Below, in pieces: positions 14,116-27,214 of a stretch of DNA of 64,000 bases. The notes below the pieces were generated by a model. The model saw nothing but the letters and a program-made list of their open reading frames with translations. It had not been told where the DNA came from and did no database searches. The stretch's first letter is position 1. Each line of letters opens with the position of its first letter. The stretch lies in the NCBI GenBank assembly GCA_009843735.1, contig VYCW01000051.1, positions 7,964 to 71,963 on the forward strand. The letters run 5' to 3'. A program made the translations under genes and the position numbers. The DNA is from Acidimicrobiaceae bacterium. Its GTDB lineage: Bacteria > Actinomycetota > Acidimicrobiia > Acidimicrobiales > Aldehydirespiratoraceae.

Positions 14116-15297
14116 GTGGCTGAGCCGTCCGGAGCGCCGGAGACCTACCTCGACCACGCCGCGTCCACGCCGCTGAGGCCCGCGGCCCGCGACGCCTGGC
14201 TGGCCGCCGCGGAGAGGCATCACGCCAACCCGACCGGATCTCACCTGGCCGCCAGGGAGGCTCGCCGGGCGCTGGACGAGGCCCGCAGCCGGGCCGCGTC
14301 CGTCCTCGGGGCCGACCCCGGCGAGATCGTGTTCACGTCGGGAGGCAGCGAGGCCGACAACATGGCTGTGCGGGGCGCGCTCGGGCTCCGGGGCTCCGGG
14401 GCTGCGGTGACCACCGAGGCCGAGCACCACGCCGTCCACGATCCGGTTGAACGCTCCGGAGGAGTCTTTGTGGGCGTGGACGAGCGCGGCATCGTCGGCC
14501 TCGACGCGCTGGCTGATGTGCTGGGTGCCCGCAACGGTGACGTCGCGGTGGTCTCGGTGATCGCGGTCAACAACGAGACCGGCTCGATCACACCACTGCC
14601 CGAAGTGGCCCGGGTGGTTCGCGACCTCGCCCCCGGAGCGCTGCTGCACACCGACGCCGTCCAGGCCGTGAACTGGATTGATGTGGCCGCCGAGACCGCC
14701 GGCTACGACCTCGTGTCGGTCACCGGGCACAAGGTGGGCTCGCCGGTGGGAACCGGGGTGCTGGTGGTGCGCGACGGCGTGGAACTCGACCCGCTGATCG
14801 TTGGGGGCGGTCAGGAGCGGGGCCGGCGGGCCGGCACGCCTGACGTGGCCGGAGCGGTGTCGTTCGCGGCTGCGCTGGTCGAGACCACCGAGCAGCGTGA
14901 CGCCAGTGTCGAGCGGCTCCGCGTCCTGCGGGATGCCCTGATCGACGGCTTGACGGACCGGCTCGGCGACCGGGTGCTGGTCTCGGCGGCCCGGACCAAC
15001 GGTGATCGCGGCCACATCGCGGCGGGCATCGCCAACGTGTGCATCGCCGGGGTGCAGAGCGAGGCACTGCTGTTCCTGATGGACGCGGCCGGGGTGCGGG
15101 CCTCAGCCGCCTCGTCATGTTCCAGCGGTGCCCAGGACCCGTCACATGTGCTGGCCGCCATGGGGGTTCCCCGCGAGGTCGCCCTGGGGTCGCTGCGGCT
15201 GTCGCTCGGCCACACCAGCGTCGCCACCGACGTGGAGCGGGCCGTGGAGGTCATCGCAGCGTCGGTCGAGCGACTCGACCGCTTCGAGGGCGGCTGA
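14116..15297 (+). CDS. iscS: Cysteine desulfurase (class V aminotransferase, IscS/NifS-like)
   Basis: The PLP-lysine context is SVTGHKVGSPVGTG and the C-terminal loop has SSCSSG. It lies directly upstream of mnmA, as in other actinobacteria. Confidence 0.85.
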   Translation: MAEPSGAPETYLDHAASTPLRPAARDAWLAAAERHHANPTGSHLAAREARRALDEARSRAASVLGADPGEIVFTSGGSEADNMAVRGALGLRGSGAAVTTEAEHHAVHDPVERSGGVFVGVDERGIVGLDALADVLGARNGDVAVVSVIAVNNETGSITPLPEVARVVRDLAPGALLHTDAVQAVNWIDVAAETAGYDLVSVTGHKVGSPVGTGVLVVRDGVELDPLIVGGGQERGRRAGTPDVAGAVSFAAALVETTEQRDASVERLRVLRDALIDGLTDRLGDRVLVSAARTNGDRGHIAAGIANVCIAGVQSEALLFLMDAAGVRASAASSCSSGAQDPSHVLAAMGVPREVALGSLRLSLGHTSVATDVERAVEVIAASVERLDRFEGG

Positions 15298-15298
15298 G

Positions 15299-16372
15299 GT
15301 GGCCGGGTCGTCGCCACACGCCCGCGGCAACCGGGTTCTGGTGGCCATGTCGGGCGGGGTGGACTCGTCGGTGGCCGCGGCCTTGCTGCAGGAGGCCGGC
15401 TACGACGTGGCCGGGGTCACCATGAAGCTGTGGGGCGGTCCAAGCGACACCGGCTGCTGCTCGGTGTCGGACGTGGACGACGCCCGCTGGGTGGCCGACC
15501 AGCTCGGCGTCGAGCATCACGTCTTCAACTTCGGCGACGACTTCGAGCGTCACGTCGTGGAGCCGTACGTGGCCGACCACGCCGCGGGCCGCACCCCGAA
15601 TCCGTGCGTGGAGTGCAACCGCCACATCAAGTTCCGCCGGCTGCTGCGCCGGGCCGACGCGCTCGGGTTCGAACTGGTAGCCACCGGCCACCACGCCCGC
15701 ATCGTGGCCACCGCCAACGGTCCCCGGATCGGGCGGGGCGTCGATGCGGCCAAGGACCAGTCCTACGTGCTGCACATGCTCGACGCCCCGGCGTTGGACC
15801 GGCTGCTGCTGCCGGTGGGGGAGATGACCAAGGACGAGGTGCGGCGCCACGCCGAGGCTCGGGGTCTGGTCACGGCATCAAAGCCCGACAGCCAGGACGT
15901 CTGCTTCATCACCTCGTCGTCCGGTCGCCGGAAGTTCCTCAGCGAGCGCATCCCGATGCGTGCGGGGAGGGTGGTCGACACCGCGGGCCAACAGGTCGGC
16001 ACGGTCGAGTCGCTCGAGCTGGTGACGGTCGGCCAGCGCCGGGGACTCGGCGCTATAGGCGACGGGTCGCCCCGCTACGTGCTGGACGTGGATGCCGACT
16101 CGGCCACAGTCACGGTGGGGGACCGGGCTGCACTCGACTGCCCGATCACGCCCCTGGAGGACTGGCGCTGGGCGAACGGGCCAGTGGAGGGTCCCCTGCG
16201 GGTGCAGACCTCAGCCCATGGCGTCGCAGCGGCGGCCACGATCGACGGCGACGGCACCGCAGTGCACTGGGCCGATCCCCGCCGGGCAGTGGCTCCCGGC
16301 CAGAGCGTCGTCGCCTACGCAGGCGATCTCGTGGTCGGCGGCGGCACCGCCGCCCGGCCTAGCGGCCGTTGA
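15299..16372 (+). CDS. mnmA: tRNA-specific 2-thiouridylase
   Basis: It has the PP-loop VAMSGGVDSSVAA plus NPCVECNRHIKF and KDQSYVL blocks. I trimmed the track ORF (15128) to the in-frame GTG at 15299, 1 nt after the iscS stop. Confidence 0.9.
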   Translation: MAGSSPHARGNRVLVAMSGGVDSSVAAALLQEAGYDVAGVTMKLWGGPSDTGCCSVSDVDDARWVADQLGVEHHVFNFGDDFERHVVEPYVADHAAGRTPNPCVECNRHIKFRRLLRRADALGFELVATGHHARIVATANGPRIGRGVDAAKDQSYVLHMLDAPALDRLLLPVGEMTKDEVRRHAEARGLVTASKPDSQDVCFITSSSGRRKFLSERIPMRAGRVVDTAGQQVGTVESLELVTVGQRRGLGAIGDGSPRYVLDVDADSATVTVGDRAALDCPITPLEDWRWANGPVEGPLRVQTSAHGVAAAATIDGDGTAVHWADPRRAVAPGQSVVAYAGDLVVGGGTAARPSGR

Positions 16373-17333
16373 TGACAGCAGAGGAGAACAGCCGCAGGCC
16401 TGTCATCGTGTGCTGGTAGTCGACCGTGTCAATCGTGTCGATGCAGATGATCATCTCGTCGATCCCTAGAGCATCGGTGGAGTCATGCGCCCACTGGTGC
16501 AGGCCGTCTAGCGGGCCAACATACGAGTGGATCCAATGGTCGAGTTCGTGACGGAGCACCGAGGGTTCCATGCCGATCTGGCCGGCGCGGCGATCGATCG
16601 CGGCGTACCGCTCGTCAACGGTGCCGATCGGGTCGTCGGTCAACAGGACCGTGCACATCCGGCTGATCACCAGATCGTCGCCGCGACGCCCAAGCGCGTC
16701 GGCCGTACGGCGAGTAGCGCGGGCGATCTCAGCGGTCCTGGCGTTGCCCCTGGATAACACATTGACGCGGTCTGCGAAGCGGGCGGCCAGAGCCACCATC
16801 CTGGGCTTCTCAGCCGCCAGAAGGATCTCTGGGCCGCCGCTACGTGGTGGCTTCGGCTCGCAGACACCTCCGGAGATCGAGTAGTAGTCGCCCTCGAAGT
16901 CGGTCCGGGTCTGGGTCCACAGCGATCGCAAGATCTCGAGTTCTTCTCCGAGCATGGCGACCCGCTCACGGGCGCTCGGGAACTCGATCCCCAGGGACCG
17001 CTGCTGCTCCGGCGCGTTTCCCGCGCCCATGCCAACGATCATCCGGCCACCACTCAGCAGATCCGCAGTAGAGGTGATCTTCGCGAACAGGCCGGGATGA
17101 CGCCTCCCCACCGGCGACACCAGCGAGCCGAGACGCAGGTGCCTTGTGCGCATCGCCATCGCCGGGAGCATCGTCCAAGGCTCGAAGGTGCCCACATCGA
17201 TGTTCGCTTGATGCGCGAAGATGTCGTCACCGATATAGCAGGCGTGGAAGCCGAGCGACTCGATCTCCGCAGCCGCGTCCAGATACTCGGCGACGGTCCA
17301 GCCCCATCCCACCAGCAGAACCGACGGGAGCAT
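16359..17333 (-). CDS. Luciferase-like monooxygenase (LLM) class flavin/F420-dependent oxidoreductase
   Basis: The LLM blocks are RLGSLVSPVGRRHPGLFAK and GGRMIVGMGAGN. The start was trimmed to the ATG at 17333-17331, 1 nt downstream of the stop of the preceding gene. This is the last gene of the minus-strand operon. Confidence 0.8.
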   Translation of the reverse strand: MLPSVLLVGWGWTVAEYLDAAAEIESLGFHACYIGDDIFAHQANIDVGTFEPWTMLPAMAMRTRHLRLGSLVSPVGRRHPGLFAKITSTADLLSGGRMIVGMGAGNAPEQQRSLGIEFPSARERVAMLGEELEILRSLWTQTRTDFEGDYYSISGGVCEPKPPRSGGPEILLAAEKPRMVALAARFADRVNVLSRGNARTAEIARATRRTADALGRRGDDLVISRMCTVLLTDDPIGTVDERYAAIDRRAGQIGMEPSVLRHELDHWIHSYVGPLDGLHQWAHDSTDALGIDEMIICIDTIDTVDYQHTMTGLRLFSSAVINGR

Positions 17334-17334
17334 C

Positions 17335-18534
17335 TCAGGCCGTCCCGTCTGCGAGCAGGTCGTCAAGGATCCGGTTGGCGAACAGGTATTGGGGCTCGTC
17401 CCAGAACGGCGCGTAGAACCCCCGGTCACGAGCGGGAGAGCGCCGTGACCGCTGTATGGCCTCCATCACCGCCGCGTCTTCCTCGGCAGCCTGAGCGAAT
17501 AGCTCGTCGGCAGCTCGACGCCTCGGCGCGTAGTCCGAGGTGGCGGCCTGCTTGCGCACCAGGGTCGCTCCCCGGACCCGGGTGCGATCGGGCGCCTCGG
17601 GGAACTGGATCACGGGGGCTATCAGGGTGTCCATCACCGCCACCGAGAGGTTCGGGTAGCTCTGCAGGAAGAAGCCCCGCTCGGGCCTGCTGTTCCGGCC
17701 TATGTGGGGCAGGTCGATGGGCGGGTAGGTCGCCGTCACGTCTGACTCGGCGTAACTGAAGCCAAAGACGTTGCCGGTCGAGACCACCTCGAACTTGGGA
17801 GTACCGTCCGGGCCGACCCTGGGAATCTCCGGAGAAGCGGCGTACATGGCGTGCGTGAACGATTCGTGCAGGATGTTCAGGCAGTCGTTGTCAGCGAAGG
17901 TCTTCCAGTTTGTGGCCAGTACTGACTCGAACACGTCGATCTGTCCCGACTCGTCGGTTGCCGTGCCTAGATCGTCGAGGTCGAATTCGTGCAGGAGCTC
18001 CTCGAAGGATCCGATGTAACTGGAGAAATCGGGTGACCGGGAGCCGGCGCTTACGAACACGACTCCGAGGGACACATCGCACGCGATTCCCTTGAGGTCT
18101 CGATGCTGCATGGGGACAGCGGGGAGACCATTGCCGGGAGGCCCCGCCCAGTAAGGCGCGTCGATGAGCCGCCCTTCGAGGTCGTAGCGCCATCCGTGAT
18201 AGGCCACACGCAAGTCAGCCGCCTGCTTCACCGGCGCGGTGACCACTGGGCAGCCGTCGTAGGCGCACACATTGTGGAACGCCCTAATCCGGCCGTCGGA
18301 GCCCTTCACCACGAAGATCGGCAGGCCGCACACGTCGATTGGCATCGCATCGCCGACGTGAGCGAGTTCGTCGGCGAAGCACGCCGCGAGCCAGTTCCGC
18401 TCGACGATGCACTCCTGCTCCAGGGCGAAGAAGTCGGCCGCGGTGAACGCCCGCCGGGGAAACGTCCTGGCCTCACCAATGGGCCGGCGAATCGCTTCCG
18501 TTTCGGCTTGGGTGAGAAGGTGTGCGGTGCCCAT
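17335..18534 (-). CDS. Rieske-type ring-hydroxylating oxygenase alpha-subunit homologue with non-canonical Rieske ligands
   Basis: The start was trimmed to MGTAHLL (ATG 18534-18532). The Rieske region reads FHNVCAYDGC...VAYHGWRYDLEGRL, against the canonical C-x-H...C-x-x-H. The catalytic domain keeps NWK...D and the HESFTH 2-His pattern. Confidence 0.75.
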   Translation of the reverse strand: MGTAHLLTQAETEAIRRPIGEARTFPRRAFTAADFFALEQECIVERNWLAACFADELAHVGDAMPIDVCGLPIFVVKGSDGRIRAFHNVCAYDGCPVVTAPVKQAADLRVAYHGWRYDLEGRLIDAPYWAGPPGNGLPAVPMQHRDLKGIACDVSLGVVFVSAGSRSPDFSSYIGSFEELLHEFDLDDLGTATDESGQIDVFESVLATNWKTFADNDCLNILHESFTHAMYAASPEIPRVGPDGTPKFEVVSTGNVFGFSYAESDVTATYPPIDLPHIGRNSRPERGFFLQSYPNLSVAVMDTLIAPVIQFPEAPDRTRVRGATLVRKQAATSDYAPRRRAADELFAQAAEEDAAVMEAIQRSRRSPARDRGFYAPFWDEPQYLFANRILDDLLADGTA

Positions 18535-18545
18535 CGCGTCTCCTG

Positions 18546-19289
18546 CTAGGTCTGGACCGTGTATCCGTACCAGACGTTGGGTTCCTCCAGCCAGCAGCGG
18601 TCGGCGTCCACGTCGACATGGAGTAGATCCAGAGCGCCATCGATCACGTACCGGCCGCTGGCGGGGAGTTCGAGGCCTGTCCATTCCTCCCAGTCGGAGA
18701 CGGAGCCTTCGAAGCGCATCGGCTCCCGGCAGACGCCCAAGCGCTGGGCACCTCCGGCGATCTGAGCGCGGATCCAGGGGTCGAAGGCGGTGCCGTCGGG
18801 GCGCTTCCAATCGATGTACTCCTCGAATGGGATCGTCGGATAGAGGTGCTTGCGGGTGGGTCGGATCGGGGCGATCAAGTGCGACAGACCATGATCGCGG
18901 CACAGGCGATTGCCCTCTTCCAGCGCCCGGGCCGCCACGCCCTTCCCGCTGTGGGAGTCGGCTACCGCTACCTGGATCCCGCAGAGGGTGGTCACTGCCC
19001 GGCCCTCGCGTCGATGGCGCAGGCTGCGGGCCAGCACCTCGTGCTCGCTGTGGGGCAGGCCCTCGGTCGTTCCGTCCCAGAACACGGGCACGGAGTTGAA
19101 GACTCCGGCCAGTTCGTCGGTGGTCTCGTCCACGAGGTACAGCTGCAGGTCTGCGAACGCCGCGATCACCAGGGGCCAGTGCTCATTCCATATCGAATCG
19201 TGCAGCATGAACTCCGGGAAGGCGTCCGATTCCATCTGCTCGAAGTGCTCGAGCAGTTCGGGCTTCTGGGCGTGGCTCAGGATCTTCAC
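18546..19289 (-). CDS. GNAT-family acyltransferase with a ~100-aa C-terminal extension
   Basis: 247 aa. The acetyl-CoA pocket-like motif is VAVADSHSGKGVAARAL. The conserved-looking C-terminal block is RPTRKHLYPTIPFEEYIDWKRPDGTAFDPWIR. It overlaps the upstream gene's stop by 4 nt. Confidence 0.65.
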   Translation of the reverse strand: MKILSHAQKPELLEHFEQMESDAFPEFMLHDSIWNEHWPLVIAAFADLQLYLVDETTDELAGVFNSVPVFWDGTTEGLPHSEHEVLARSLRHRREGRAVTTLCGIQVAVADSHSGKGVAARALEEGNRLCRDHGLSHLIAPIRPTRKHLYPTIPFEEYIDWKRPDGTAFDPWIRAQIAGGAQRLGVCREPMRFEGSVSDWEEWTGLELPASGRYVIDGALDLLHVDVDADRCWLEEPNVWYGYTVQT

Positions 19290-20134
19290 GTTCCGGAACC
19301 TCTCCGCTGCGGCTCCCGTCGCCTCAGGTAGTCGATCGCGATGCTGTGCAACCGTTCCTGGCCGAAGGCCTCGCCGTGGCCGGGTAGAACCGTGTTCACC
19401 GTCATTTGTGCCAGCCGCCGCATCGTCTCCACATAAGCATCGATATCACTTCCGGCTAGCTCATCGAGGAGCGGGCCGTCGTACACCGCGTCACCCGAGA
19501 GCAGCAGCCCGCTACGGGCGTCGTAGAGCCCGATGCTGCCCGGGGAGTGGCCCGGCAGGTGCAGGACCTCCAACGCCCGGTCGCCGAGGTCGATCACGTC
19601 CCCTTCGCCGAGTAGCCGGGTCGGGGCAGCAGGACGGTGCGGAAGCTGGTCGAGTTCGAACCCGTCGTGCGGCACCGCCATCACGAAACACTCGGGCATG
19701 AGGTATCCCGCCCGTTGCATGTGGGCGTTCTCGGCCGGATCAAGGTCCGCGCTCCAGAGGCTGACGATGTCGGGATCCGCCGTGGCCGGATCCACGTAGT
19801 GGGCCTCGTCCCGGTGCACCCAGCGCTGCCCGAACTCGTGCCACCCGCCGGCGTGGTCGGCATGAGTGTGGGTTAGGACGACCACGGCTTCGCGTCCGGG
19901 GGCGATTTTCAGGTGCGGCCAGAGGGGAGTTATGCCGAGCCCGGTGTCAACCACTAGGTCGAAATGCTTGCCCGCGATCCACCACACATTGCATCGAAGC
20001 ACCTCCGCAACGTACGGCTCCCGCAGCAGGGCGATGCCCGGGGAGAAATCGGCCCGATTCCACCAAGCCCCGGCAATGGGCAGCGGAGCCGAACTCTCGC
20101 CCCGTCCCCGGCTCAAGCGTCCTAGCCCGCTCAC
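19286..20134 (-). CDS. Metallo-beta-lactamase-fold hydrolase
   Basis: It has the HxHxDH motif (VLTHTHADHAGG) and a later HLPGHSPGS. I trimmed the track ORF to the GTG at 20134-20132, which forms a GTGA overlap with the stop of the preceding small gene. Confidence 0.75.
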   Translation of the reverse strand: MSGLGRLSRGRGESSAPLPIAGAWWNRADFSPGIALLREPYVAEVLRCNVWWIAGKHFDLVVDTGLGITPLWPHLKIAPGREAVVVLTHTHADHAGGWHEFGQRWVHRDEAHYVDPATADPDIVSLWSADLDPAENAHMQRAGYLMPECFVMAVPHDGFELDQLPHRPAAPTRLLGEGDVIDLGDRALEVLHLPGHSPGSIGLYDARSGLLLSGDAVYDGPLLDELAGSDIDAYVETMRRLAQMTVNTVLPGHGEAFGQERLHSIAIDYLRRREPQRRGSGT

Positions 20135-20379
20135 GCCGCGTCCCTGGCTCGTGCGATGCCCAGCAGCGCCAGCAGCGCCACGACGAACCAGACGAATTCG
20201 AGCACCACGAAAGGCGGATACCAGATCACGGCCGAGGCAATGCAGGCGAGCGCCGCACCGACGGCGTTCAGCGCCTGGTAGAGGCGGGAGGACGCCGAGA
20301 GCCGGCCGACAAGGTTGAGGGCGAAGGCGGCCAGGAGGATCGACACGCCCGCAGACCCGATGAGGGTCTCGATGCTCAT
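20131..20379 (-). CDS. 82-aa integral membrane protein (3 predicted helices)
   Basis: It is the C-terminal part of track ORF 20131..21456: MSIETLIGSAGVSILLAAFALNLVGRL...WYPPFVVLEFVWFVVALLALLGIA. Its ATG forms an ATGA overlap with the livF-like stop, and its own stop overlaps the MBL start. Confidence 0.6.
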   Translation of the reverse strand: MSIETLIGSAGVSILLAAFALNLVGRLSASSRLYQALNAVGAALACIASAVIWYPPFVVLEFVWFVVALLALLGIARARDAA

Positions 20380-21104
20380 GGAGCGTCCCTCGGAACGATG
20401 TCCTCGGAGCCCAGGTAGGCGGCGTCGAGGCGGGACCGGTCCGCCAGGAGTTGACTGGCAGGCCCTGACAGCACAAGGTCGCCGTGGCTCAGGACGTATG
20501 CCCGGTCGCTGTGGGAAAGTGCCAACTCGGCGTACTGCTCCACCAGCAGGGCGCCTGCGCCGGTGTCCGCGACGACTTGACGGACGACCGGCAGCAGCTG
20601 CGCGAAGATCAGCGGTGCCAGTCCGAGAGAGAGCTCGTCGATGAGCAACAGCCTCGGCTCGCTCAGGATGGCCCGCCCCATGACCAGCATCTTCTGCTCG
20701 CCGCCGGAGAGCAGAGCAGCCTTTCGCTCCATCAAGGGAGCCAGGGCGGGGAAGTAGGCGAGCGCCTTGTCGAAGTCGGGACGGCCGCGCCGAACCCCCA
20801 GCACCAGGTTCTCTCGCACGGTCAGCTGGCCGAGCACACCCCGGCCCTCGGGCACGTGCGCCACGCCTCGCCGGGCGACCTCGTGGGCCCGTCGCAGCCT
20901 TGGGACGGGGCCGCCCAGGACGGTGATGTCCCCCTTGAGGCGGGCCACGAGTCCCGACACGGCACGCAGCGTGGTCGTCTTGCCGGCACCGTTGGGTCCC
21001 AGCAGGGTGACCACCTCGCCGGCTCGAACATGGAGCGAAAGGTCCCTGACCACCGGTACCCCGTCGTAGCCGGCGCTCAGCCCGTCGATATCGAGCAGCG
21101 TCAT
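20376..21104 (-). CDS. ABC transporter ATP-binding protein, LivF-like
   Basis: Walker A GPNGAGKTT, signature LSGGEQKML, Walker B LLLIDELSLGLAP. Confidence 0.9.
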   Translation of the reverse strand: MTLLDIDGLSAGYDGVPVVRDLSLHVRAGEVVTLLGPNGAGKTTTLRAVSGLVARLKGDITVLGGPVPRLRRAHEVARRGVAHVPEGRGVLGQLTVRENLVLGVRRGRPDFDKALAYFPALAPLMERKAALLSGGEQKMLVMGRAILSEPRLLLIDELSLGLAPLIFAQLLPVVRQVVADTGAGALLVEQYAELALSHSDRAYVLSHGDLVLSGPASQLLADRSRLDAAYLGSEDIVPRDAP

Positions 21105-21868
21105 GTCCGATCCTCGGCGTCGGAGTGCTCCTCGCCCAGGTAGGCCTCAACCACTCGGGGATCCCGGCGGATCTGCTCGGGAGCGCCCTCAGCGATGACC
21201 GACCCGAACTCGAGCACCCAGATGCGGTCGCACACCGACAGGACCAGGTCCATGTCGTGGTCCACCAGCAACAGCGTGGCCCCGCCGTCGACCATGGCGC
21301 GCAGCCGGGCACCCAGCCACACCGTCTCAGCCCGGTCCAGGCCTGCTGCCGGCTCGTCGAGCAGCACGATCCGCGACTGGGCCACCATGGCGCGGGCAAT
21401 CCCCACCAGCTTGCGCTGGCCGAGCGATAGTTCCTGGGGCAAGCGGGAGCGCGCACCAGTCAGCTCGAAACGCTCCAGTACTTCCTCGATGCGCTCGTCG
21501 CGCTCACGGCGCCACAGCCCGGTAACGGCTCGGCCCAGCGTCAAGGGCTGGCTGGCTACGGCCAGGTTCGACCAGACATCGATGTCGTCGAAGAGCTCGA
21601 CGGACTGCCAGGTCCGGTTGAGGCCCCGCTGAGACAGCACGTGGGGCGGCACGGAGCTGATGTCCTCCCCCCTGAACAGCACCGTGCCTGACGCATTGGA
21701 CGGCAGGAATCCAGTGACTGCGTCGATGAAGGTCGTCTTGCCGGCGCCGTTGGGCCCGATGAGTCCCGTCAGCTCACCGTGGCGGCAGGCGATGTCGACC
21801 CCCGTTAGCGCCTCCACCCCGCCGAAGGCGACCCGCAGGCCCTGGCTCTCGAGCACAGTGGGGCTCAC
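21101..21868 (-). CDS. ABC transporter ATP-binding protein, LivG-like
   Basis: Walker A GPNGAGKTT, signature LSLGQRKLV, Walker B VLLDEPAAGLD. The start was trimmed to the GTG at 21868-21866, giving a GTGA overlap with the permease stop. Confidence 0.9.
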   Translation of the reverse strand: MSPTVLESQGLRVAFGGVEALTGVDIACRHGELTGLIGPNGAGKTTFIDAVTGFLPSNASGTVLFRGEDISSVPPHVLSQRGLNRTWQSVELFDDIDVWSNLAVASQPLTLGRAVTGLWRRERDERIEEVLERFELTGARSRLPQELSLGQRKLVGIARAMVAQSRIVLLDEPAAGLDRAETVWLGARLRAMVDGGATLLLVDHDMDLVLSVCDRIWVLEFGSVIAEGAPEQIRRDPRVVEAYLGEEHSDAEDRT

Positions 21869-23934
21869 GGCGCGCTTCCGATCGGCGCTGGGGGCAGTGC
21901 CCGGCGATTGAGAAGGGCACGACACTTCTTCGCAACATACCGATTGAACCGCCGGGTCGACCCGGCGATGCCGTCGGCGTCGAAGGCCAACTCGGCGATC
22001 AGGAAGGTTCCCGCGATATAGGTCTCGTAGCGCCCGAGCACGATCAACTCCTCGCCGACGACTGTGCCGATCCCGGCTCCCACCAGCGTGCCGGTCCACA
22101 GGGCACCGCTCACCGTGCTGATGCCACCGAGGTAGGCGTAGGCGATTAGCACTAGCGAGGCCGTCCAGCCGAACGTGTCGGACTGAAACGATCCAAGCTG
22201 GGCGGCCTTCAGGCCACCCGCGGCTCCGGCCAGCGCGGCACCGATCACGAAGGCCGTCAGCTTGATGCGGGCGATGTCGACACCGGCCGCCGCGGCGGCC
22301 CGCTCGTTGGCCCTTACCGCCAGCATCTGCCGGCCCGTGGGGCTGCGCCGCAGCAGCGACACGAACACGCACGCAGCCACGGCCACGGCCAGGATGAGCA
22401 CTCCGATGGCCGGAGATGGCCGCTTGTCGTCCCCCAGGAAGAATTCAGAGGCCGAACCCAACTCGATCCCGAACAACTCGGGTGCGTCCGCTCTGGCCCG
22501 TCGTGACGTTCCGAACCATCCGTCGCGGCGGAACAGCACGGCTTCGATGGCGATGCCGGCGCCGAGAGTGATGATGGCCAGGCTCGGGCCCCGCGACCGC
22601 AGTGCCAACATCCCGACAACGAGACCGAACAGCGCTGAGGTGGCGATGGCAAGCGGGTATCCGAGGATGAACGGGACGCCGGCCTCGGCTACATACGACC
22701 CGAGACCAAAGGCCGCGATGCCCGACAGCGCGACCTGGGCCAGTGACACCTGCCCCACGAAACCGGTGACGACCACGAGGCTGAGCGCCAGGATGATCCC
22801 GATCAACGAGTTGTTGATGCCGTTGCGGTACTCGAAGGGCAACCAGATGGACGCAGCCAGGACCGCGAGCACGAACAGCACCACCGGAACCGGCCGTATC
22901 CGGTCGGCGTAGGCCAGCGGAAGACGCTCGCTGCCGACCGCTCCCCGTCCTGGCACCGCGTCACCCCTGGCGGCCATCGCCACCGCGATCACCGCCAGCG
23001 GGAGGATCTCGGCCAGGTCCAAGTCCGGTACCCAGTCCTGACGCTGCTCCAGGATGAAGATCAGGCTCTGAGCCATGCCGATCCCCACGCCGACGAGGGC
23101 CGACGTCCAGAACGACGAGAAGGCGCCAACCAGGGCCGCGGCCACCGCCGGCACGATCAGGAGTGTCATCCTGCCCGGGCTGACACCGGTGATAGGAGCC
23201 ACCAGGATGCCGACACCGCCGGCTACCACGCTGGCGACGACCCAGCTTACGGCGGCCTGGAAGTCCGCCGAGTAGCCCAGCAGGGTCGCGACCTCCTCGT
23301 TCTCGGCCGCGGCGCGGGTGGCGATCCCGAAACGGGTGAAGCGGAACGCGGTCCACAGCACCAGCGTGACCGCTAGCAGCAGGGCCAGCAGAATGAACCG
23401 GTCGCGCGGGATCAAAGTCCCTGCGATGCTCACCGTGGCGTCGGGAAGCAGCGCCTCCGCGTGCTTGGCCTGCGATCCGAACCTGAGCACCACCACGGCC
23501 TGCAGAGTGAGCAGCATCCCGATCGAGGCCACCACCTTGGCCGTCGCGGGGGCGTATCGCAGCGGTCTGAACACCAGGAAATGAGCCGCGAGTCCCAACA
23601 GCACCGCCGTTGCCATCGCGACGGCAATCGCGGTTGGAATGGAGGTTCCGTCGCCCACGTCGATGATGGTTGGAAGGTCGGGAGCGTCGAAGTGGAGGCC
23701 GAACCATCCGGCGATCCCGGCTGCGATGGCAAGAGGATTGGGAAGCGGAGGCACCGGGTACTCGCCGTTGTTCCGCATCTCGACGAAGACGTAGGTGACG
23801 TAGGTGGCGATGGCTCCGTGCCCGAAGTTGATGACGCCCGAGGCCCGGAAGCTGAGGGTCAGCCCAATCGCTAGCGCGCCGATGATGACACCGGTGCCGA
23901 TGCCGATGAGCAGGAACTGCAGATAGATGCTCAC
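21865..23934 (-). CDS. Fused LivH/LivM-type branched-chain-amino-acid-family ABC permease
   Basis: 689 aa and highly hydrophobic throughout. Two permease halves are in one polypeptide, and the gene sits upstream of the LivG/LivF-like ATPases. Confidence 0.85.
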   Translation of the reverse strand: MSIYLQFLLIGIGTGVIIGALAIGLTLSFRASGVINFGHGAIATYVTYVFVEMRNNGEYPVPPLPNPLAIAAGIAGWFGLHFDAPDLPTIIDVGDGTSIPTAIAVAMATAVLLGLAAHFLVFRPLRYAPATAKVVASIGMLLTLQAVVVLRFGSQAKHAEALLPDATVSIAGTLIPRDRFILLALLLAVTLVLWTAFRFTRFGIATRAAAENEEVATLLGYSADFQAAVSWVVASVVAGGVGILVAPITGVSPGRMTLLIVPAVAAALVGAFSSFWTSALVGVGIGMAQSLIFILEQRQDWVPDLDLAEILPLAVIAVAMAARGDAVPGRGAVGSERLPLAYADRIRPVPVVLFVLAVLAASIWLPFEYRNGINNSLIGIILALSLVVVTGFVGQVSLAQVALSGIAAFGLGSYVAEAGVPFILGYPLAIATSALFGLVVGMLALRSRGPSLAIITLGAGIAIEAVLFRRDGWFGTSRRARADAPELFGIELGSASEFFLGDDKRPSPAIGVLILAVAVAACVFVSLLRRSPTGRQMLAVRANERAAAAAGVDIARIKLTAFVIGAALAGAAGGLKAAQLGSFQSDTFGWTASLVLIAYAYLGGISTVSGALWTGTLVGAGIGTVVGEELIVLGRYETYIAGTFLIAELAFDADGIAGSTRRFNRYVAKKCRALLNRRALPPAPIGSAP

Positions 23935-24019
23935 GAGTCGTCGCCGACGATCTCAGCCGCTCCGGTCGTGATGTTAGCCGCGGAGACTCGAGGCCCCGCT
24001 TCAGGGCTTGTGATGATGT

Positions 24020-25357
24020 TCAGCCGAGAGCCTCGAACTCCGAGAAGTCGATCGGCGCCAATCCGACGTCCTTCATCGAAGTGCCGTCGACCTCGAGCAC
24101 TATCAGGCTCGATACGCACGCACCGGGGAACGGGTCGGGTCCTGGACAGGAGACGTCGGCGTAGTAGCCGGTCGTGAGCTGTACCCGGCTCAGCGCCTCG
24201 TTGACCGTCTCGCGGGAGAGATTCTCGTATCCCACGTCAACCAGCGCGGCGTGGACACCGAGGACAGACACGAGGGCCCAGCCGGCGAGACCGTAGACCT
24301 CAGCTTCTTCGGATCCGTAGGTTTCGATGATCCGCTGACCCTCGAGGACCGCATCGCTGGCCAGGGACGGGTCGACCGGCAGGGCGCTGGCTCCGAACAC
24401 AAGCCACCCGTCCAGGGCGCCACTCGCCACCGTGTCCTCGAGAGCACAAGTGTCGAAGGTGATGATGGCCGTTTCGACCGACAGTGACGACAGCGCATCG
24501 GCTAGCGGCGAGCACTGGGTGCCGTCTATAGCGGCCATCACGACGTCGACGTCGGCCGCTCCCGAGGCGGTGACCACACCGACGTAGTCGGCCTGTTCGA
24601 AGGCTGCAGGCGTGATGCCGGTTACTTCCAGGCCAGCATTCTCTGCGAAGACGCTGGCTGCGTCGCAGGCCTCCAGGAAGAAGGGGTCGTCGAGGCAGAT
24701 GATCGCCATGGTGCCAGCGCCAATGGTGTCGGCCGCATAGGCCACGGGTCCCTGTACCAATCCCAGGAAGCCGGGATCGAAGATCCATTCGGTCGGTCGC
24801 TGCCAGTCGTCGGGCAGGTTGGCCAGTGCCAGCTGCGGCAGACCGGCCGGGACGGTGACCTCCGCAGCCTCGTTGCTCGAGTAGCTGCTGGTGATCATCA
24901 CGTGGATGTCGTCGTCGTTGGCGAACTGCTGGGCGCATGCCACCGCGCCTTCGGGACCGTCACCGGAAGTGCAGAGCTCAAGCTCCAACGGGTGCCCGTC
25001 CACTCCACCGAGCTCCGCGTTTATGTACGCAACCGCAGCTTCGGCAGCCCTGCGGGCTTCGATGATCGAGAAGAGCTCCTCCTCCTGGGAGTCGAATCCG
25101 ATTCTGACCGGGTCCATAGCAGTGTCGTCCGGCTCTGGTGCCTCCTCTGGTGCGGCGGTTGTTGCCGGTGCGGCAGTCGTCGCCGGTGCGGCGGTTGTTG
25201 CCGGTGCCTCCGCTTCGGGCGCGTCGTCATCCCCGCAGGAGGCGGCAACCAGCGCGAACACCCCGAACAGGCCAGCGAGCAGCCGAACCCCTCTCGCCGA
25301 GATCGGACTTCTGCCGGTCTCTGTTCGTGTGGTTGCCTCGCCCCGCTGCCGGTTCAT
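24020..25357 (-). CDS. Lipoprotein substrate-binding protein (type I periplasmic-binding fold, Liv/amide family)
   Basis: The start was trimmed to MNRQRG (ATG 25357-25355). The signal and lipobox are LLAGLFGVFALVAASCG, followed by a low-complexity linker with 3x PATTAA and then a PBP1-like domain. Confidence 0.8.
   Translation of the reverse strand: MNRQRGEATTRTETGRSPISARGVRLLAGLFGVFALVAASCGDDDAPEAEAPATTAAPATTAAPATTAAPEEAPEPDDTAMDPVRIGFDSQEEELFSIIEARRAAEAAVAYINAELGGVDGHPLELELCTSGDGPEGAVACAQQFANDDDIHVMITSSYSSNEAAEVTVPAGLPQLALANLPDDWQRPTEWIFDPGFLGLVQGPVAYAADTIGAGTMAIICLDDPFFLEACDAASVFAENAGLEVTGITPAAFEQADYVGVVTASGAADVDVVMAAIDGTQCSPLADALSSLSVETAIITFDTCALEDTVASGALDGWLVFGASALPVDPSLASDAVLEGQRIIETYGSEEAEVYGLAGWALVSVLGVHAALVDVGYENLSRETVNEALSRVQLTTGYYADVSCPGPDPFPGACVSSLIVLEVDGTSMKDVGLAPIDFSEFEALG
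25149..25202 (-). repeat. 3 x 18-bp in-frame tandem repeat encoding (APATTA)3 in the SBP linker
   Basis: The plus-strand units are ggtgcggcggttgttgcc / ggtgcggcagtcgtcgcc / ggtgcggcggttgttgcc. Units 1 and 3 are identical, and unit 2 differs only synonymously. Confidence 0.9.
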
Positions 25358-25387
25358 GACTGCTCCCATCTCCGATTCCGAAATTTT

Positions 25388-25405
25388 TTCGTTCGACTGA
25401 ATGAA
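25388..25405. promoter_or_regulatory. Candidate TetR operator (imperfect palindrome) in the divergent SBP/TetR intergenic region
   Basis: TTCGTTC-GACT-GAATGAA has half-sites matching 6/7 as an inverted repeat. It lies in the 77-bp AT-richer gap between divergent starts 25357 and 25435. Confidence 0.3.
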
Positions 25406-25434
25406 TTGGGCGAGGTTATGCTTACCGCCCATCC

Positions 25435-26118
25435 ATGTCAAACGACAGCCTTGGTTCCCCCGTTAGGCGGGTCGGCCGTCCCCGTGCCGACAAACGCGTC
25501 CCCGAAGGCGACGTCTCCGAGCACATCCTCGCGGCGTCAGCCGAACTGTTCATCCGCCAGGGCTACACGGCTACCACCACCCGCCAGATAGCGGCTGCGG
25601 TCGGCTTGCGGCAGGGGTCGTTGAGCCACTACTTCCCGCGGAAGAAGGACATTTTCGCAGAACTGCTCGACCGTACGGTTGAACCCGCGCTGACGATGAT
25701 CGACGGACTCGATCCAGGGTTGCCGCCCGAGGTCCGGCTGTGGCTCCTGCTGTCGACCGACTGCTTCAATCTGGCGTCGGGTGAGCAGAACCTGGCCAGT
25801 CTCATGCTGCTCCCCGAAGCACGAAGTGATGAGTTCGACCAGTTCTGGGCTAGGCGCGACCAACTCAAGGATCGGTATCGGGACATCATCGTGGCGGGCT
25901 TGAGGCACGGGTCCCTGTCTTGTAGCGATGTTCTTCTAGCCGTTGACGCCACCTTCGGGATCGTCGAGAGCATCATCACCTGGTTCGAGCGGGGCGGGCC
26001 GGTGACGTCTCGCGGCGCTGTCCATCACGTCGCGCGAGCCGCACTGGCTGCGCTATTGACGTCGCCGTCTGAAGTGGATCGGGTAATCGCTCAGGCCGAA
26101 GCGCTGGTGGCAGCATGA
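25435..26118 (+). CDS. TetR/AcrR-family transcriptional regulator
   Basis: The N-terminal HTH is FIRQGYTATTTRQIAAAVGLRQGSLSHYFPRKKDIF. It is divergent from the ABC/enzyme operon. Confidence 0.9.
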   Translation: MSNDSLGSPVRRVGRPRADKRVPEGDVSEHILAASAELFIRQGYTATTTRQIAAAVGLRQGSLSHYFPRKKDIFAELLDRTVEPALTMIDGLDPGLPPEVRLWLLLSTDCFNLASGEQNLASLMLLPEARSDEFDQFWARRDQLKDRYRDIIVAGLRHGSLSCSDVLLAVDATFGIVESIITWFERGGPVTSRGAVHHVARAALAALLTSPSEVDRVIAQAEALVAA

Positions 26119-26152
26119 GGCCGCGGACCATGCGGACGGGTGATTCGACAGC

Positions 26153-27214
26153 TTGATGTCAACGAGGATCAATTCGCCCATGACCGGACCGAGCCGACGC
26201 GAGGTCTCCTTGCCCAAGCTGGATGTCTATGTGCTGCCGGTCGAGGTGAGCTGGCAGCAGGTCCGCACCATGTTTCTGCGAGCAGAGGAATTGGGCTTCC
26301 ACACTGCCTGGATCCACGACAACGTGGTCGGGCCTGTGCCCTGGAAGCCTGACGCCGCGGTCTACGACTCCTGGAGTGTTCTAGGTGCGCTGGGCGAAGC
26401 CACGTCGCGCATAAGGCTCGGATCTCTGGTCACTCCGATGGGACGACGCCATCCAAGCGTTTTCGCCAAGATGACGGCGTCCTTCGACAACACCAGCGGT
26501 GGGCGCCTCGACTTGGGGATGGGTCCCGGAGATGAGCCCCATCAATACGAGCCCTGGGGACTGCGCTATCCGGAGCCACCCGAACGCATCGAGATCCTCG
26601 AGGAGGAGATCGAGATCATCAAGGGACTCTGGACCAATGATCGCGTGACCTACGAGGGCAAGCACTACCAACTGCGGGACGCCACGCTTGCCCCGAAGCC
26701 GCTGCAGAAGCCCCACCCACCGATCTGGATCGGTCTCGTGTTCGGCCGCAGAGTCATGCCGCGCGTCGCCGCCCGCCACGCCGACGGTGTGAACTTCTAC
26801 TCCAAACATGACGAAGACGTGGCCGCGACGATTGAGCAGGTCCGGTCGCTGTGCAGAGACATCGGACGCGACCCCGCACCGATCAAGTTCTCGCGCTGCG
26901 TGTCGGTTTGGGTGACCGACGACATCCCCGATGTCGAAGCCGAGTTGAACCGAGTCGGTGAGGAGTACGGCACCGGCGGAGACTACGTGCGCGACTATGT
27001 GGCCGCTTATGAGCGCATGGCGATCGGCCCCCCGGAGGTGATCGCTGAGGAGTTCGTGAAGCAGGCCCAGCTTGGAATCGACCAGATCATCGTCAACATG
27101 ATCCTGGGGCCCGGTCCGGCACACAAGGACTTGCCGGTTGTGGAAGGAGTGCTTCGCACCTGGGAGCGCATCGCCACAGAGGTGCGGCCCTTGATGGAGG
27201 CGACGCTCAGCTAG
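26153..27214 (+). CDS. LLM-class flavin/F420-dependent oxidoreductase
   Basis: It has RLGSLVTPMGRRHPSVFAK, GGRLDLGMGPG and KPLQKPHPPIWIG blocks. The start could instead be the internal M at about 26180. Confidence 0.8.
   Translation: MMSTRINSPMTGPSRREVSLPKLDVYVLPVEVSWQQVRTMFLRAEELGFHTAWIHDNVVGPVPWKPDAAVYDSWSVLGALGEATSRIRLGSLVTPMGRRHPSVFAKMTASFDNTSGGRLDLGMGPGDEPHQYEPWGLRYPEPPERIEILEEEIEIIKGLWTNDRVTYEGKHYQLRDATLAPKPLQKPHPPIWIGLVFGRRVMPRVAARHADGVNFYSKHDEDVAATIEQVRSLCRDIGRDPAPIKFSRCVSVWVTDDIPDVEAELNRVGEEYGTGGDYVRDYVAAYERMAIGPPEVIAEEFVKQAQLGIDQIIVNMILGPGPAHKDLPVVEGVLRTWERIATEVRPLMEATLS

What the first reader, a model, noticed from the sequence alone, without database searches (positions are those of the whole stretch)
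18196..18267. Rieske-type oxygenase homologue with two of the four [2Fe-2S] ligands replaced
The canonical alpha-subunit signature is C-x-H-x15-17-C-x-x-H (for example NVCRHRG...CPYHGW). Here the aligned positions read NVC-A-Y-DGC ... RV-A-Y-H-GW.

The first His is replaced by Tyr92, and the second Cys is replaced by Val110. An extra Cys95 appears 5 residues after Cys90.

I verified the DNA by reverse-complementing 18250-18279 (ttccacaatgtgtgcgcctacgacggctgc = FHNVCAYDGC). The catalytic domain still shows the mononuclear-iron 2-His pattern (LHESFTH).

There are three possibilities. The protein binds a non-standard cluster, for example with Cys/Cys/His ligation. It has lost the cluster and receives electrons differently. 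Or it is a non-redox paralogue.
Basis: partly seen in the sequence, partly recalled or inferred. Interest (0 to 1): 0.55.

Follow-up and report, generated by a model that had tools for sequence, protein, structure and literature searches.

The report
Rieske oxygenase relative without iron-sulfur cluster
This gene encodes a well-conserved relative of the Rieske oxygenases that has lost the iron-sulfur cluster feeding electrons to the active site but kept the catalytic iron site, and it belongs to a widespread, undescribed bacterial clade that must work differently from every characterised member of this enzyme class.

Summary
The gene at 17335-18534 (-) encodes a 399-aa Rieske-oxygenase alpha-subunit homologue. 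At the four [2Fe-2S] ligand positions it reads C90, Y92, V110, H113, with canonical spacing and no register shift.

It is not an error or a one-off. About 76 homologues, down to about 33% identity, share the pattern. They come from Acidimicrobiales (many sponge-associated), Gamma- and Alphaproteobacteria, Myxococcota and others, and form one pure clade in a neighbour-joining tree.

All 147 canonical relatives examined keep C-H...C-H. The clade has also changed the inter-subunit bridging Glu/Asp to Asn220. The iron-binding triad H223/H228/D353 is essentially invariant. Both domains are under purifying selection.

C90 and C95 are each repeatedly replaced within the clade. This argues against a conserved substitute cluster or metal site.

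The gene sits in a tight operon: Liv-type ABC importer, MBL-fold hydrolase, GNAT-like protein, this gene, F420-type luciferase-like oxidoreductase. No ferredoxin or Rieske motif occurs in the 64 kb.

Best reading: a cluster-free non-heme-iron enzyme that works without the Rieske electron relay. Its substrate and chemistry are unknown. I found no description of such a clade in the literature searched.

The parts
17335..18534 (-). Gene for the 399-aa cluster-less Rieske-oxygenase alpha-subunit homologue (ATG 18534, TGA 17337-17335)
   Evidence: Translation. Pfam PF00355 + PF00848. AF2 model pLDDT 92.1, pTM 0.91. Foldseek top hits are Stc2 and CntA.
18196..18267 (-). Degenerate Rieske cluster-binding loops: C90-A-Y92-D93-G-C95 ... 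V110-A-Y112-H113. Y92 replaces His ligand 1 and V110 replaces Cys ligand 2.
   Evidence: Y92 and D93 are clade-specific: Tyr in 89% and Asp in 100% of clade members, versus His 100% and Arg 99% in canonical relatives.
17875..17877 (-). Asn220 codon, at the position of the inter-subunit bridging Glu/Asp (CntA E205, Stc2 E201)
   Evidence: N in 95% of clade members and 0% of canonical relatives, which have E or D. CntA E205 mutants are inactive (PMC7948474).
17851..17868 (-). H223-E-S-F-T-H228: the two His ligands of the mononuclear iron site, plus the clade-specific E224
   Evidence: Aligns with Stc2 His204/His209. Invariant in the clade.
17476..17478 (-). Asp353 codon, the carboxylate ligand of the 2-His-1-carboxylate triad
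   Evidence: Aligns with Stc2 Asp360. Invariant in A1; 98% in the clade and 97% in canonical relatives.
17800..17832 (-). Clade-specific insertion (residues 235-245, incl. P238, R239, G244) just after the Fe-binding helix
   Evidence: These columns are gaps in 83-91% of canonical relatives and conserved in at least 90% of the clade.
16359..17333 (-). Luciferase-like (LLM) oxidoreductase, F420-type. Its ATG (17333) lies 1 nt after the RO-like stop codon.
   Evidence: Pfam PF00296. NCBIfam F420 LLM subfamilies, below cut-off. PDB Mer/FGD1 relatives. Junction read. Conserved downstream neighbour in orthologues.
18546..19289 (-). 247-aa GNAT-like (N-acetyltransferase-family) protein. Its stop codon lies 11 nt upstream of the RO-like ATG.
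   Evidence: Weak Pfam PF00583 hit (E 0.0037). Weak match to the GNAT domain in PDB 4u5y. Homologues are named GNAT family N-acetyltransferase by NCBI/JGI. Conserved neighbour.
19286..20134 (-). MBL-fold metallo-hydrolase of the glyoxalase II / thioesterase-like type. It starts at GTG 20134 (GTGA overlap with the upstream gene), and its stop overlaps the GNAT-like start.
   Evidence: Pfam PF00753. PDB YcbL 2xf4 at 2.7e-17 and PqsE at 1e-07. Start codon read.
20131..20379 (-). Small (~82 aa) hydrophobic protein ORF between the ABC ATPase and the MBL gene
   Evidence: The translation is visible at the C-terminus of ORF 20131..21456. The orthologous position in L002 carries an 82-aa PF26604 CBU_0592 protein.
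20376..25441 (-). Liv-type ABC importer: ATPase 20376-21104, ATPase 21101-~21868, fused permease 21865-23934, substrate-binding protein 24020-~25300/25441. Gene starts are approximate.
   Evidence: Pfam ABC_tran, BCA_ABC_TP_C, BPD_transp_2 and Peripla_BP_6. Same order in orthologous loci.
25435..27214 (+). Divergently transcribed TetR-family regulator (25435-26118) and a second LLM oxidoreductase (26153-27214)
   Evidence: Pfam. The same divergent pair occurs in L001 and L002.

Best explanation
The gene encodes a member of a monophyletic, widely distributed clade of Rieske-oxygenase alpha-subunit homologues. The closest relatives are the alpha3-type betaine/carnitine oxygenases Stc2, CntA and GbcA.

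Shown here. The clade has lost the Rieske [2Fe-2S] cluster: His ligand 1 became Tyr, and Cys ligand 2 is variable. It has also lost the carboxylate that wires that cluster to the neighbouring subunit's iron (Glu/Asp to Asn220). It keeps the full two-domain fold and an essentially invariant 2-His-1-Asp metal site (H223, H228, D353).

Inferred. The dead Rieske domain survives as a structural and interface module. H113 and N220 probably still contact each other across the subunit interface. The protein is a mononuclear non-heme-iron enzyme whose catalysis does not use a reductase-to-Rieske-to-iron electron relay.

Mechanism I commit to (inferred). It activates O2 at the Fe(II) triad using electrons that come from the substrate itself. 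In other words, it is a reductant-independent oxidase or dioxygenase reaction. An alternative is that it uses H2O2 from a neighbouring flavoenzyme. The substrate would be a small nitrogen-containing metabolite imported by the operon's Liv-type ABC system. It would be processed together with the adjacent MBL-fold (thio)esterase-like hydrolase, the GNAT-like protein and the F420-type LLM oxidoreductase. A remodelled pocket would adapt the site to the new chemistry (clade-specific E224, Y231, and the R239 insertion).
For: - Register and ligand replacement.
- Fold: the AF2 model has pLDDT 92.1, including 93-96 over the former cluster loops. Foldseek top hits are Stc2 (1e-28) and CntA, with TM 0.73-0.85.
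- Family-wide pattern: 36-sequence alignment A1 has Y92, D93, Y112, H113, H223, E224, H228, E352 and D353 invariant, with N220 and C90 near-invariant.
- Motif table over 246 proteins: the clade reads [C/S/V/G][Y/F/H]D[C/H/S/A/G]x H N H H D, while canonical proteins read C H R x C H [E/D] H H D.
- Phylogeny: 76 of 77 cluster-less proteins form one pure NJ clade. The three basal members still have Glu at position 220, which suggests stepwise decay.
- Selection: dN/dS is 0.13-0.25 overall, and the Rieske-domain segment (0.10-0.22) is about as constrained as the catalytic one (0.12-0.32).
- Precedent for the bridging residue: CntA E205 is essential for electron transfer, and E205A/D/Q are inactive (PMC7948474).
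- No partner motifs: no Rieske, plant-type ferredoxin or 4Fe-4S motif occurs in any ORF of at least 60 aa in the 64-kb window. No ferredoxin or reductase family recurs next to the gene in 77 related loci.
- Context: the tight operon is conserved at 56-66% identity. A flavoenzyme (LLM or FAD amine oxidase) lies within 3 genes in 34 of 77 loci, and a hydrolase in 54 of 77.
Against: - No biochemical data exist. Substrate and reaction type are unknown.
- Three canonical relatives used as controls also lack an adjacent reductase, so absence of a partner gene is weak evidence.
- In the query's own subclade, C90, C95, H87 and H113 are all present. A non-Rieske metal site in this particular protein cannot be excluded from sequence, and model coordinates could not be inspected.
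- A retained metal triad is equally compatible with non-redox (Lewis-acid) catalysis.
- A few related loci carry a canonical RO paralogue next door.
- The NJ tree has no support values.
Confidence: 0.6

Rival explanations
1. Non-redox paralogue. The RO catalytic (SRPBCC) domain keeps a divalent metal as a Lewis acid and catalyses a hydrolytic, lyase or isomerase step with no O2 chemistry. Alternatively, it is only a ligand-binding subunit.
For: The whole electron-delivery apparatus is dismantled. The clade gained Glu224 next to the first metal His, plus Tyr231 and Arg239. That set is typical of acid/base catalysis on carboxylated substrates. Neighbours are dominated by hydrolases (54 of 77 loci). 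NCBI names some members only 'SRPBCC family protein'.
Against: The exact facial triad geometry used for O2 activation (H-x4-H plus a distal Asp) is invariant. Frequent pairing with flavin oxidoreductases (34 of 77 loci) suggests an oxidative pathway. I found no precedent for a hydrolytic enzyme on this scaffold in the literature searched.
Confidence: 0.2
2. Still a reductant-dependent oxygenase, with electrons delivered in trans. The donor could be a canonical RO paralogue in a mixed oligomer (as in NdmA/NdmB), a free Rieske ferredoxin, or a reductase carrying its own Rieske domain (as NdmD does for NdmC), encoded elsewhere in the genome.
For: NdmC lacks a Rieske cluster and is served by the Rieske domain of NdmD (PMC10380055). 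Canonical RO paralogues lie directly beside the cluster-less gene in L041, L049, L053 and L054. An 80-aa Rieske protein lies 3 kb away in L004. Canonical relatives often have partners encoded elsewhere.
Against: The bridging carboxylate on the receiving side, which is essential in CntA, is Asn in 95% of the clade. The normal entry route is therefore closed. No Rieske or ferredoxin motif occurs in the 64-kb window. Adjacent canonical paralogues occur in only about 5 of 77 loci.
Confidence: 0.1
3. A non-standard metal centre occupies the old cluster pocket in this subclade. It could be a mononuclear Zn/Fe site or an unusual [2Fe-2S] held by C90, C95 and H113 plus H87, Y92 or D93.
For: C90, C95 and H113 are all present in the query and its relatives of at least ~53% identity. 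C95 is replaced by His, another metal ligand, in P0020 and P0025. The C-x-Y-x-G-C spacing mimics the C-T-H-L-G-C box of bc1-type Rieske proteins (my own knowledge). The loops are among the most conserved parts of the protein.
Against: C90 becomes S, V or G, and C95 becomes S, A or G, repeatedly and independently. These changes occur in sister sequences of Cys-bearing members: P0029/P0030, P0120/P0105, and P0041 versus P0114/P0122. Y92 becomes Phe in several members. Position 110 is freely variable (V/A/T/S/G). So no ligand set is conserved across the clade, while the rest of the protein is.
Confidence: 0.08
4. Artefact: a sequencing or assembly error, or a decaying pseudogene.
For: None found.
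Against: The ORF is intact and has the same length as its orthologues. A 99%-identical protein represents 32 database sequences. The same motif occurs in 77 independent genome loci. dN/dS is 0.13-0.25.
Confidence: 0.01

Closest known systems
Alpha3-type quaternary-ammonium Rieske monooxygenases: stachydrine demethylase Stc2 (PDB 3vca), carnitine monooxygenase CntA (6y8j), glycine-betaine monooxygenase GbcA
   Same: They are the best sequence matches (3vca at 1.9e-20; NCBIfam GbcA at 5e-26). They are also the best structural matches (Foldseek 1e-28, TM 0.73-0.85). They share the two-domain architecture, the H-x4-H...D iron triad, and the absence of a beta-subunit gene nearby.
   Different: Two of the four cluster ligands are missing. 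The bridging Glu (CntA E205) is Asn. The CntA pi-cation Tyr203 position is Cys218. The GbcA model score is 91 bits against a cut-off of 670. There is a clade-specific insertion at 235-245, plus E224 and Y231.
NdmC of the caffeine N-demethylase NdmCDE (Pseudomonas putida CBB5)
   Same: An RO-family catalytic subunit that has no Rieske cluster of its own (PMC10380055).
   Different: NdmC is described as lacking the N-terminal Rieske [2Fe-2S] and is fed by a Rieske domain fused to the reductase NdmD, with NdmE as scaffold. Here the Rieske domain is retained and constrained but ligand-deficient. The bridging residue is lost. No NdmD/NdmE-like genes or Rieske motifs are nearby.
Cluster-less Rieske-like domains such as plant/algal PSB33/TEF5
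   Same: A Rieske fold kept without the residues that bind an Fe-S cluster (PMC12164590).
   Different: Those are membrane-anchored photosystem II auxiliary proteins without a catalytic domain. Here the dead Rieske domain is fused to an apparently live non-heme-iron catalytic domain.

Membership tests
Rieske non-heme iron oxygenase alpha subunit (RO; PF00355 + PF00848) | N-terminal Rieske-fold domain | tested here: met
   PF00355 at E 2e-13, above the gathering score. AF2 and Foldseek superpose on RO alpha subunits.
Rieske non-heme iron oxygenase alpha subunit (RO; PF00355 + PF00848) | C-x-H-x15-17-C-x2-H ligands of the Rieske [2Fe-2S] cluster | tested here: not met
   The sequence reads C90-x-Y92-x17-V110-x2-H113 in an ungapped register. 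All 147 canonical relatives keep C-H...C-H.
Rieske non-heme iron oxygenase alpha subunit (RO; PF00355 + PF00848) | Bridging Asp/Glu three residues before the first iron His (inter-subunit electron transfer) | tested here: not met
   The residue is N220. Asn occurs in 95% of the clade and 0% of canonical relatives.
Rieske non-heme iron oxygenase alpha subunit (RO; PF00355 + PF00848) | 2-His-1-carboxylate mononuclear iron triad in an SRPBCC-type catalytic domain | tested here: met
   H223, H228 and D353 align with Stc2 H204, H209 and D360. They are invariant in the clade. PF00848 at E 7e-14.
Rieske non-heme iron oxygenase alpha subunit (RO; PF00355 + PF00848) | Dependence on an NAD(P)H reductase, with or without a ferredoxin partner | tested here: inconclusive
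   No ferredoxin or Rieske motif occurs in the 64 kb, and none recurs in 77 loci. However, canonical controls also lack adjacent partners. Biochemistry is needed.
Rieske non-heme iron oxygenase alpha subunit (RO; PF00355 + PF00848) | Head-to-tail alpha3 (or alpha3beta3) assembly | not testable with these tools
   Only a monomer could be modelled. No beta-subunit gene lies adjacent.
GbcA/Stc2/CntA quaternary-ammonium monooxygenases | Equivalog-level sequence score (NCBIfam NF058607 GbcA cut-off 670 bits) | tested here: not met
   The score is 91 bits, covering the N-terminal half only.
GbcA/Stc2/CntA quaternary-ammonium monooxygenases | Aromatic pi-cation residue for the trimethylammonium group (CntA Y203, two residues before the bridging Glu) | tested here: not met
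   The equivalent position is C218 by motif alignment (D-C218-L-N220-I-L-H223). The CntA residues come from PMC7948474.
NdmC-type Rieske-less RO subunits | N-terminal Rieske cluster absent, with the Rieske function supplied by the reductase (NdmD) and a GST-like scaffold (NdmE) | tested here: not met
   The Rieske domain is present and under purifying selection. No NdmD-like Rieske motif occurs in the window. No GST-like family turned up among the Pfam-annotated operon genes and recurrent neighbour families.

The most novel reading that the evidence does not exclude
The clade is a new mechanistic class on the Rieske-oxygenase scaffold. It would be a homotrimeric 2-His-1-Asp iron enzyme that activates oxygen with no protein electron donor at all. 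Either the substrate supplies all electrons, or the enzyme runs the RO 'peroxide shunt' physiologically, using H2O2 made by the flavoenzyme that is so often encoded beside it. That flavoenzyme is an FAD amine oxidase in Proteobacteria and an LLM oxidoreductase in Acidimicrobiales.
Probability: 0.3. Interest if true: 0.8.

Novelty: new variant of a known kind. Interest (0 to 1): 0.6.

Why it matters
Reviews describe Rieske oxygenases as using two metal centres, with the Rieske-to-iron relay across subunits central to their mechanism and to engineering efforts (abstracts listed).

A natural, ancient, selectively maintained lineage that discarded the cluster and the bridging carboxylate but kept the catalytic iron would show that the scaffold can support reductase-independent chemistry. 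Such enzymes would be attractive biocatalysts because they need no redox partners.

The lineage also offers a natural experiment on what the Rieske domain contributes structurally. [quoted passage not shown]

The carriers are largely marine and sponge-associated bacteria. The unknown substrate may therefore be an abundant marine or host-derived nitrogenous metabolite.

Tried and rejected
- Register shift. Three PDB alignments, MAFFT and an HMM alignment all agree and show no indel between the motifs, so a shift is rejected.
- Sequencing error or pseudogene. Rejected on the basis.
- Conserved replacement metal site or disulfide (C90/C95). Rejected at clade level by independent substitutions. 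It is not excluded for this subclade.
- Electron-transfer partners. Regex scans of all ORFs in the window and in 84 loci (L001-L081, a re-oriented window segment and three control loci) found nothing in the window. Elsewhere there were only sporadic canonical RO paralogues.
- Control for 'no reductase nearby'. Three canonical relatives also lack one, so I down-weighted this argument.
- Substrate from context. The neighbour families are too generic and heterogeneous to name a compound. They are MBL, GNAT-like, LLM, FAD amine oxidase, alpha/beta hydrolases, creatinase/M24, arginase-family, SnoaL, GFA, sulfotransferase and TauD.
- The GNAT-like protein. It has no significant PDB, NCBIfam or Pfam hit beyond weak GNAT matches.
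- Literature. Five full-text searches for cluster-less, degenerate or vestigial Rieske oxygenases returned nothing relevant. The only related items were NdmC and PSB33/TEF5.
- tRNA and Rfam scans of the window were empty.
- Metal-site geometry could not be inspected because model coordinates are not exposed by the tools.
Full report
**Observation**

The ORF on the minus strand from ATG 18534 to TGA 17337-17335 encodes 399 aa. A longer ORF reaching 18903 overlaps the upstream gene. Orthologues are 399 aa with the same N-terminus, so ATG 18534 is the start.

The protein reads FHNV-C90-A-Y92-D93-G-C95-...-R-V110-A-Y112-H113-GW.

Pfam detects a Rieske domain (PF00355, residues 47-128, E 2e-13) and the ring-hydroxylating alpha catalytic domain (PF00848, 204-390, E 7e-14). 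Both are above the gathering scores.

Ungapped phmmer alignments to Stc2 (3vca/4qup) and 3n0q place C90/Y92/V110/H113 on the four cluster ligands C/H/C/H. MAFFT and HMM alignments agree. The spacing C-x-Y-x17-V-x2-H is canonical, so no register shift can restore Cys2His2.

H223 and H228 (LHESFTH) align with Stc2 His204/His209, and D353 aligns with Stc2 Asp360.

**It is a family trait, not an accident**

The first homology search returned 99 proteins. The 47 closest (99% down to about 33% identity) all show C-x-Y-D-G-[C/H/S/E] and x-x-Y-H-G-W. More distant hits have the canonical CRHRG...CPYH.

A profile of 36 clade members (A1) was searched against 1.84 billion representatives. The 33 best-scoring representatives are all full-length cluster-less proteins. 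Canonical proteins follow, starting at 312 bits, interspersed with shorter cluster-less fragments.

Over 246 proteins I tabulated positions 90/92/93/95/110/113/220/223/228/353:
- The clade reads [C/S/V/G][Y/F/H]-D-[C/H/S/A/G]-[V/A/T/S/G]-H-N-H-H-D.
- Canonical relatives read C-H-R-x-C-H-[E/D]-H-H-D.

In a neighbour-joining tree of 224 full-length sequences, 76 of 77 cluster-less proteins form one pure clade that includes the query. The only outlier is a single canonical-like protein with His changed to Asn. The tree has no bootstrap support, so I treat monophyly as likely rather than proven.

A scan of species-representative genomes found 77 loci. They come from:
- Acidimicrobiales, including many MAGs whose isolate or Candidatus names suggest a sponge origin. 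One Acidimicrobiaceae MAG, SB0665_bin_5, is 95% identical at this gene.
- Gamma- and Alphaproteobacteria, Myxococcota, Chloroflexota and others.
- The cultured strains Pseudomaricurvus alkylphenolicus KCTC 32386 and Leucothrix arctica IMCC9719.

The window has 69.7% G+C, which fits an Acidimicrobiia origin.

**What else changed, and what did not**

I compared 63 non-redundant clade members with 147 canonical relatives. The clade-specific residues are:
- Y92, where canonical proteins have His in 100%.
- D93, where canonical proteins have Arg in 99%.
- N220, where canonical proteins have Glu or Asp.
- E224, Y231, W129, F373 and F377.
- An insertion around P238-R239-G244.

N220 sits three residues before the first iron His. 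That is the position of the 'bridging' carboxylate connecting the Rieske His of one subunit to the iron site of the next. In CntA this is E205, and E205A/D/Q variants are inactive and block electron transfer (PMC7948474).

So both ends of the electron wire are gone. By contrast, H223, H228 and D353 are invariant or nearly so.

The three earliest-branching clade members still carry Glu at position 220 while already lacking His1 and Cys2. This suggests the order of events: the cluster was lost first, then the now useless bridging residue.

**Is something else bound in the old cluster pocket?**

C90 and C95 are conserved in the query's subclade. Across the clade, however, each is replaced repeatedly and independently:
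- C90 becomes S, V or G.
- C95 becomes H, S, A or G.

These replacements often occur in the nearest neighbours of Cys-bearing sequences. Examples are P0029 CYDC versus P0030 SYDC, and P0120 CYDC versus P0105 VYDC. Y92 is Phe in several members, and position 110 varies freely.

No ligand set is therefore conserved. This argues against a family-wide alternative cluster, mononuclear site or disulfide. A subclade-specific site in this protein cannot be excluded from sequence, and I could not inspect model coordinates.

The loops remain highly conserved (F86, H87, N88, Y92, D93, Y112, H113, G114 are invariant). They are also confidently modelled (pLDDT 93-96 for residues 81-120). This points to a structural or interface role. 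That role is an inference.

**The gene is functional**

dN/dS against ten orthologues is 0.13-0.25. The Rieske-domain segment (0.10-0.22) is about as constrained as the catalytic domain (0.12-0.32).

The AF2 model is confident overall (pLDDT 92.1, pTM 0.91). It superposes on complete RO alpha subunits, best on the alpha3 quaternary-ammonium enzymes Stc2 (E 1e-28) and CntA (TM up to 0.85 on the target).

**Context**

The gene lies in a translationally coupled minus-strand operon, in this order:
1. Substrate-binding protein (Peripla_BP_6).
2. Fused Liv-type permease.
3. Two ABC ATPases.
4. A small hydrophobic ORF.
5. MBL-fold hydrolase (GTGA start overlap; stop overlaps the next start).
6. 247-aa GNAT-like protein.
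7. The RO-like gene, 11 nt downstream.
8. F420-type luciferase-like oxidoreductase, 1 nt downstream.

A TetR regulator and a second LLM are transcribed divergently.

The same arrangement is found in orthologues at 66% and 56% identity and across the Acidimicrobiales loci.

The MBL protein is closest to glyoxalase II / thioesterase types (YcbL 2.7e-17, PqsE 1e-07). The LLM is closest to F420-dependent Mer/FGD1. The 247-aa protein belongs to a large uncharacterised family named GNAT N-acetyltransferase by NCBI and JGI.

In Proteobacteria the partners change. They include a TetR / alpha-beta hydrolase / FAD amine oxidase / RO-like arrangement, and MFS or TonB transporters with MBL, GNAT-like, LLM and SnoaL-like proteins. 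Arginase-family, creatinase/M24, amidohydrolase, sulfotransferase, GFA and TauD genes also occur.

Within three genes, 54 of 77 loci have a hydrolase, and 34 of 77 have a flavoenzyme (LLM or amine oxidase).

No ferredoxin or reductase family recurs. No Rieske, plant-type ferredoxin or 4Fe-4S motif exists in any ORF of at least 60 aa in the 64-kb window. As a control, three canonical relatives also lacked an adjacent reductase, so this absence is only weak support.

In about five loci a canonical RO paralogue lies directly beside the cluster-less one. This keeps a hetero-oligomer scenario alive for those genomes.

**Mechanism**

Shown:
- The cluster ligands are lost.
- The bridging carboxylate is lost.
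- The metal triad is retained.
- The fold is retained.
- Both domains are under purifying selection.
- The gene is embedded in a conserved catabolic-type operon.

Inferred:
- The protein is a mononuclear non-heme-iron enzyme that no longer uses the reductase-to-Rieske-to-iron relay.
- I commit to O2 activation at the Fe(II) triad with electrons supplied by the substrate, acting on a small imported nitrogenous metabolite (confidence about 0.6 for the cluster-free, relay-independent iron-enzyme statement as a whole).
- A less likely alternative is H2O2 from the adjacent flavoenzyme, analogous to the peroxide shunt known for naphthalene dioxygenase. That precedent is my own knowledge and was not verified in the papers read.

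Rivals and their confidence:
- A non-redox Lewis-acid enzyme: 0.2.
- Electrons delivered in trans, NdmC/NdmD-like or via a canonical paralogue: 0.1.
- A non-standard metal centre in the old pocket: 0.08.
- An artefact: 0.01.

**Comparison with what is known**

By fold and descent the protein is an RO alpha-subunit relative. It fails two defining features of the family, the Rieske ligands and the bridging carboxylate, so it should not be filed as a functional Rieske oxygenase.

It is not a GbcA/Stc2/CntA equivalog. It scores 91 bits against a cut-off of 670, and the CntA pi-cation Tyr203 position is Cys218.

The nearest precedents are NdmC and PSB33/TEF5:
- NdmC has no Rieske cluster of its own and is served by the Rieske domain of its reductase NdmD. 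Here the Rieske domain is kept and no such partner is evident.
- PSB33/TEF5 are cluster-less Rieske-like domains with no catalytic domain.

Five full-text literature searches found no description of a cluster-less RO alpha clade. The library lacks most subscription journals, so prior mention cannot be excluded.

**Verdict**

This is a real, conserved, family-wide feature. I classify it as a new variant of a known kind. Interest is 0.6. A specialist would be surprised that a widespread lineage of this intensively studied family has dispensed with its hallmark cluster while keeping the catalytic iron. The clade is directly testable in two cultured strains. Function and chemistry remain inferred.

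Noticed in passing
L053 6833-7975 and 8001-9173; L054 8001-9179 and 9232-10425; L049 2958-4097; L041 4272-5378: In a few proteobacterial genomes a canonical RO alpha paralogue (CRHR...CPYH) is encoded directly next to the cluster-less one. This hints at possible mixed oligomers or tandem duplication within one pathway.
   Followed up: partly
window 20131-20379 (-): A small (~82 aa) very hydrophobic ORF is wedged between the second ABC ATPase and the MBL hydrolase, with 4-nt overlaps on both sides. The orthologous position in L002 (6207-6455) is a PF26604 CBU_0592-family protein.
   Followed up: partly
window 18546-19289 (-): The 247-aa protein upstream belongs to a large family (551 hits at E<=1e-5) of ~250-aa GNAT-like proteins. 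They have no Pfam hit above threshold and no solved structure. The family is found well beyond this operon, for example in Chloroflexi and Lutispora.
   Followed up: partly
P0128, P0050, P0124: The earliest-branching cluster-less proteins still have Glu at the bridging position (220) although His1 and Cys2 are already gone. They look like an evolutionary intermediate.
   Followed up: partly
L082 6001-8367: The closest canonical relative examined (P0051) sits between an amidohydrolase and a creatinase/M24 gene. The same enzyme types appear next to some cluster-less members (L038, L045, L051). This suggests a shared substrate theme (N-substituted amino or guanidino compounds).
   Followed up: no
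window 15128-16372 (+) and 25435-27214 (+): Flanking genes are a tRNA 2-thiouridylase MnmA-like gene (PF03054) convergent with the operon end, and a divergent TetR regulator followed by a second luciferase-like oxidoreductase. No tRNA or Rfam match occurs anywhere in the 64 kb.
   Followed up: yes
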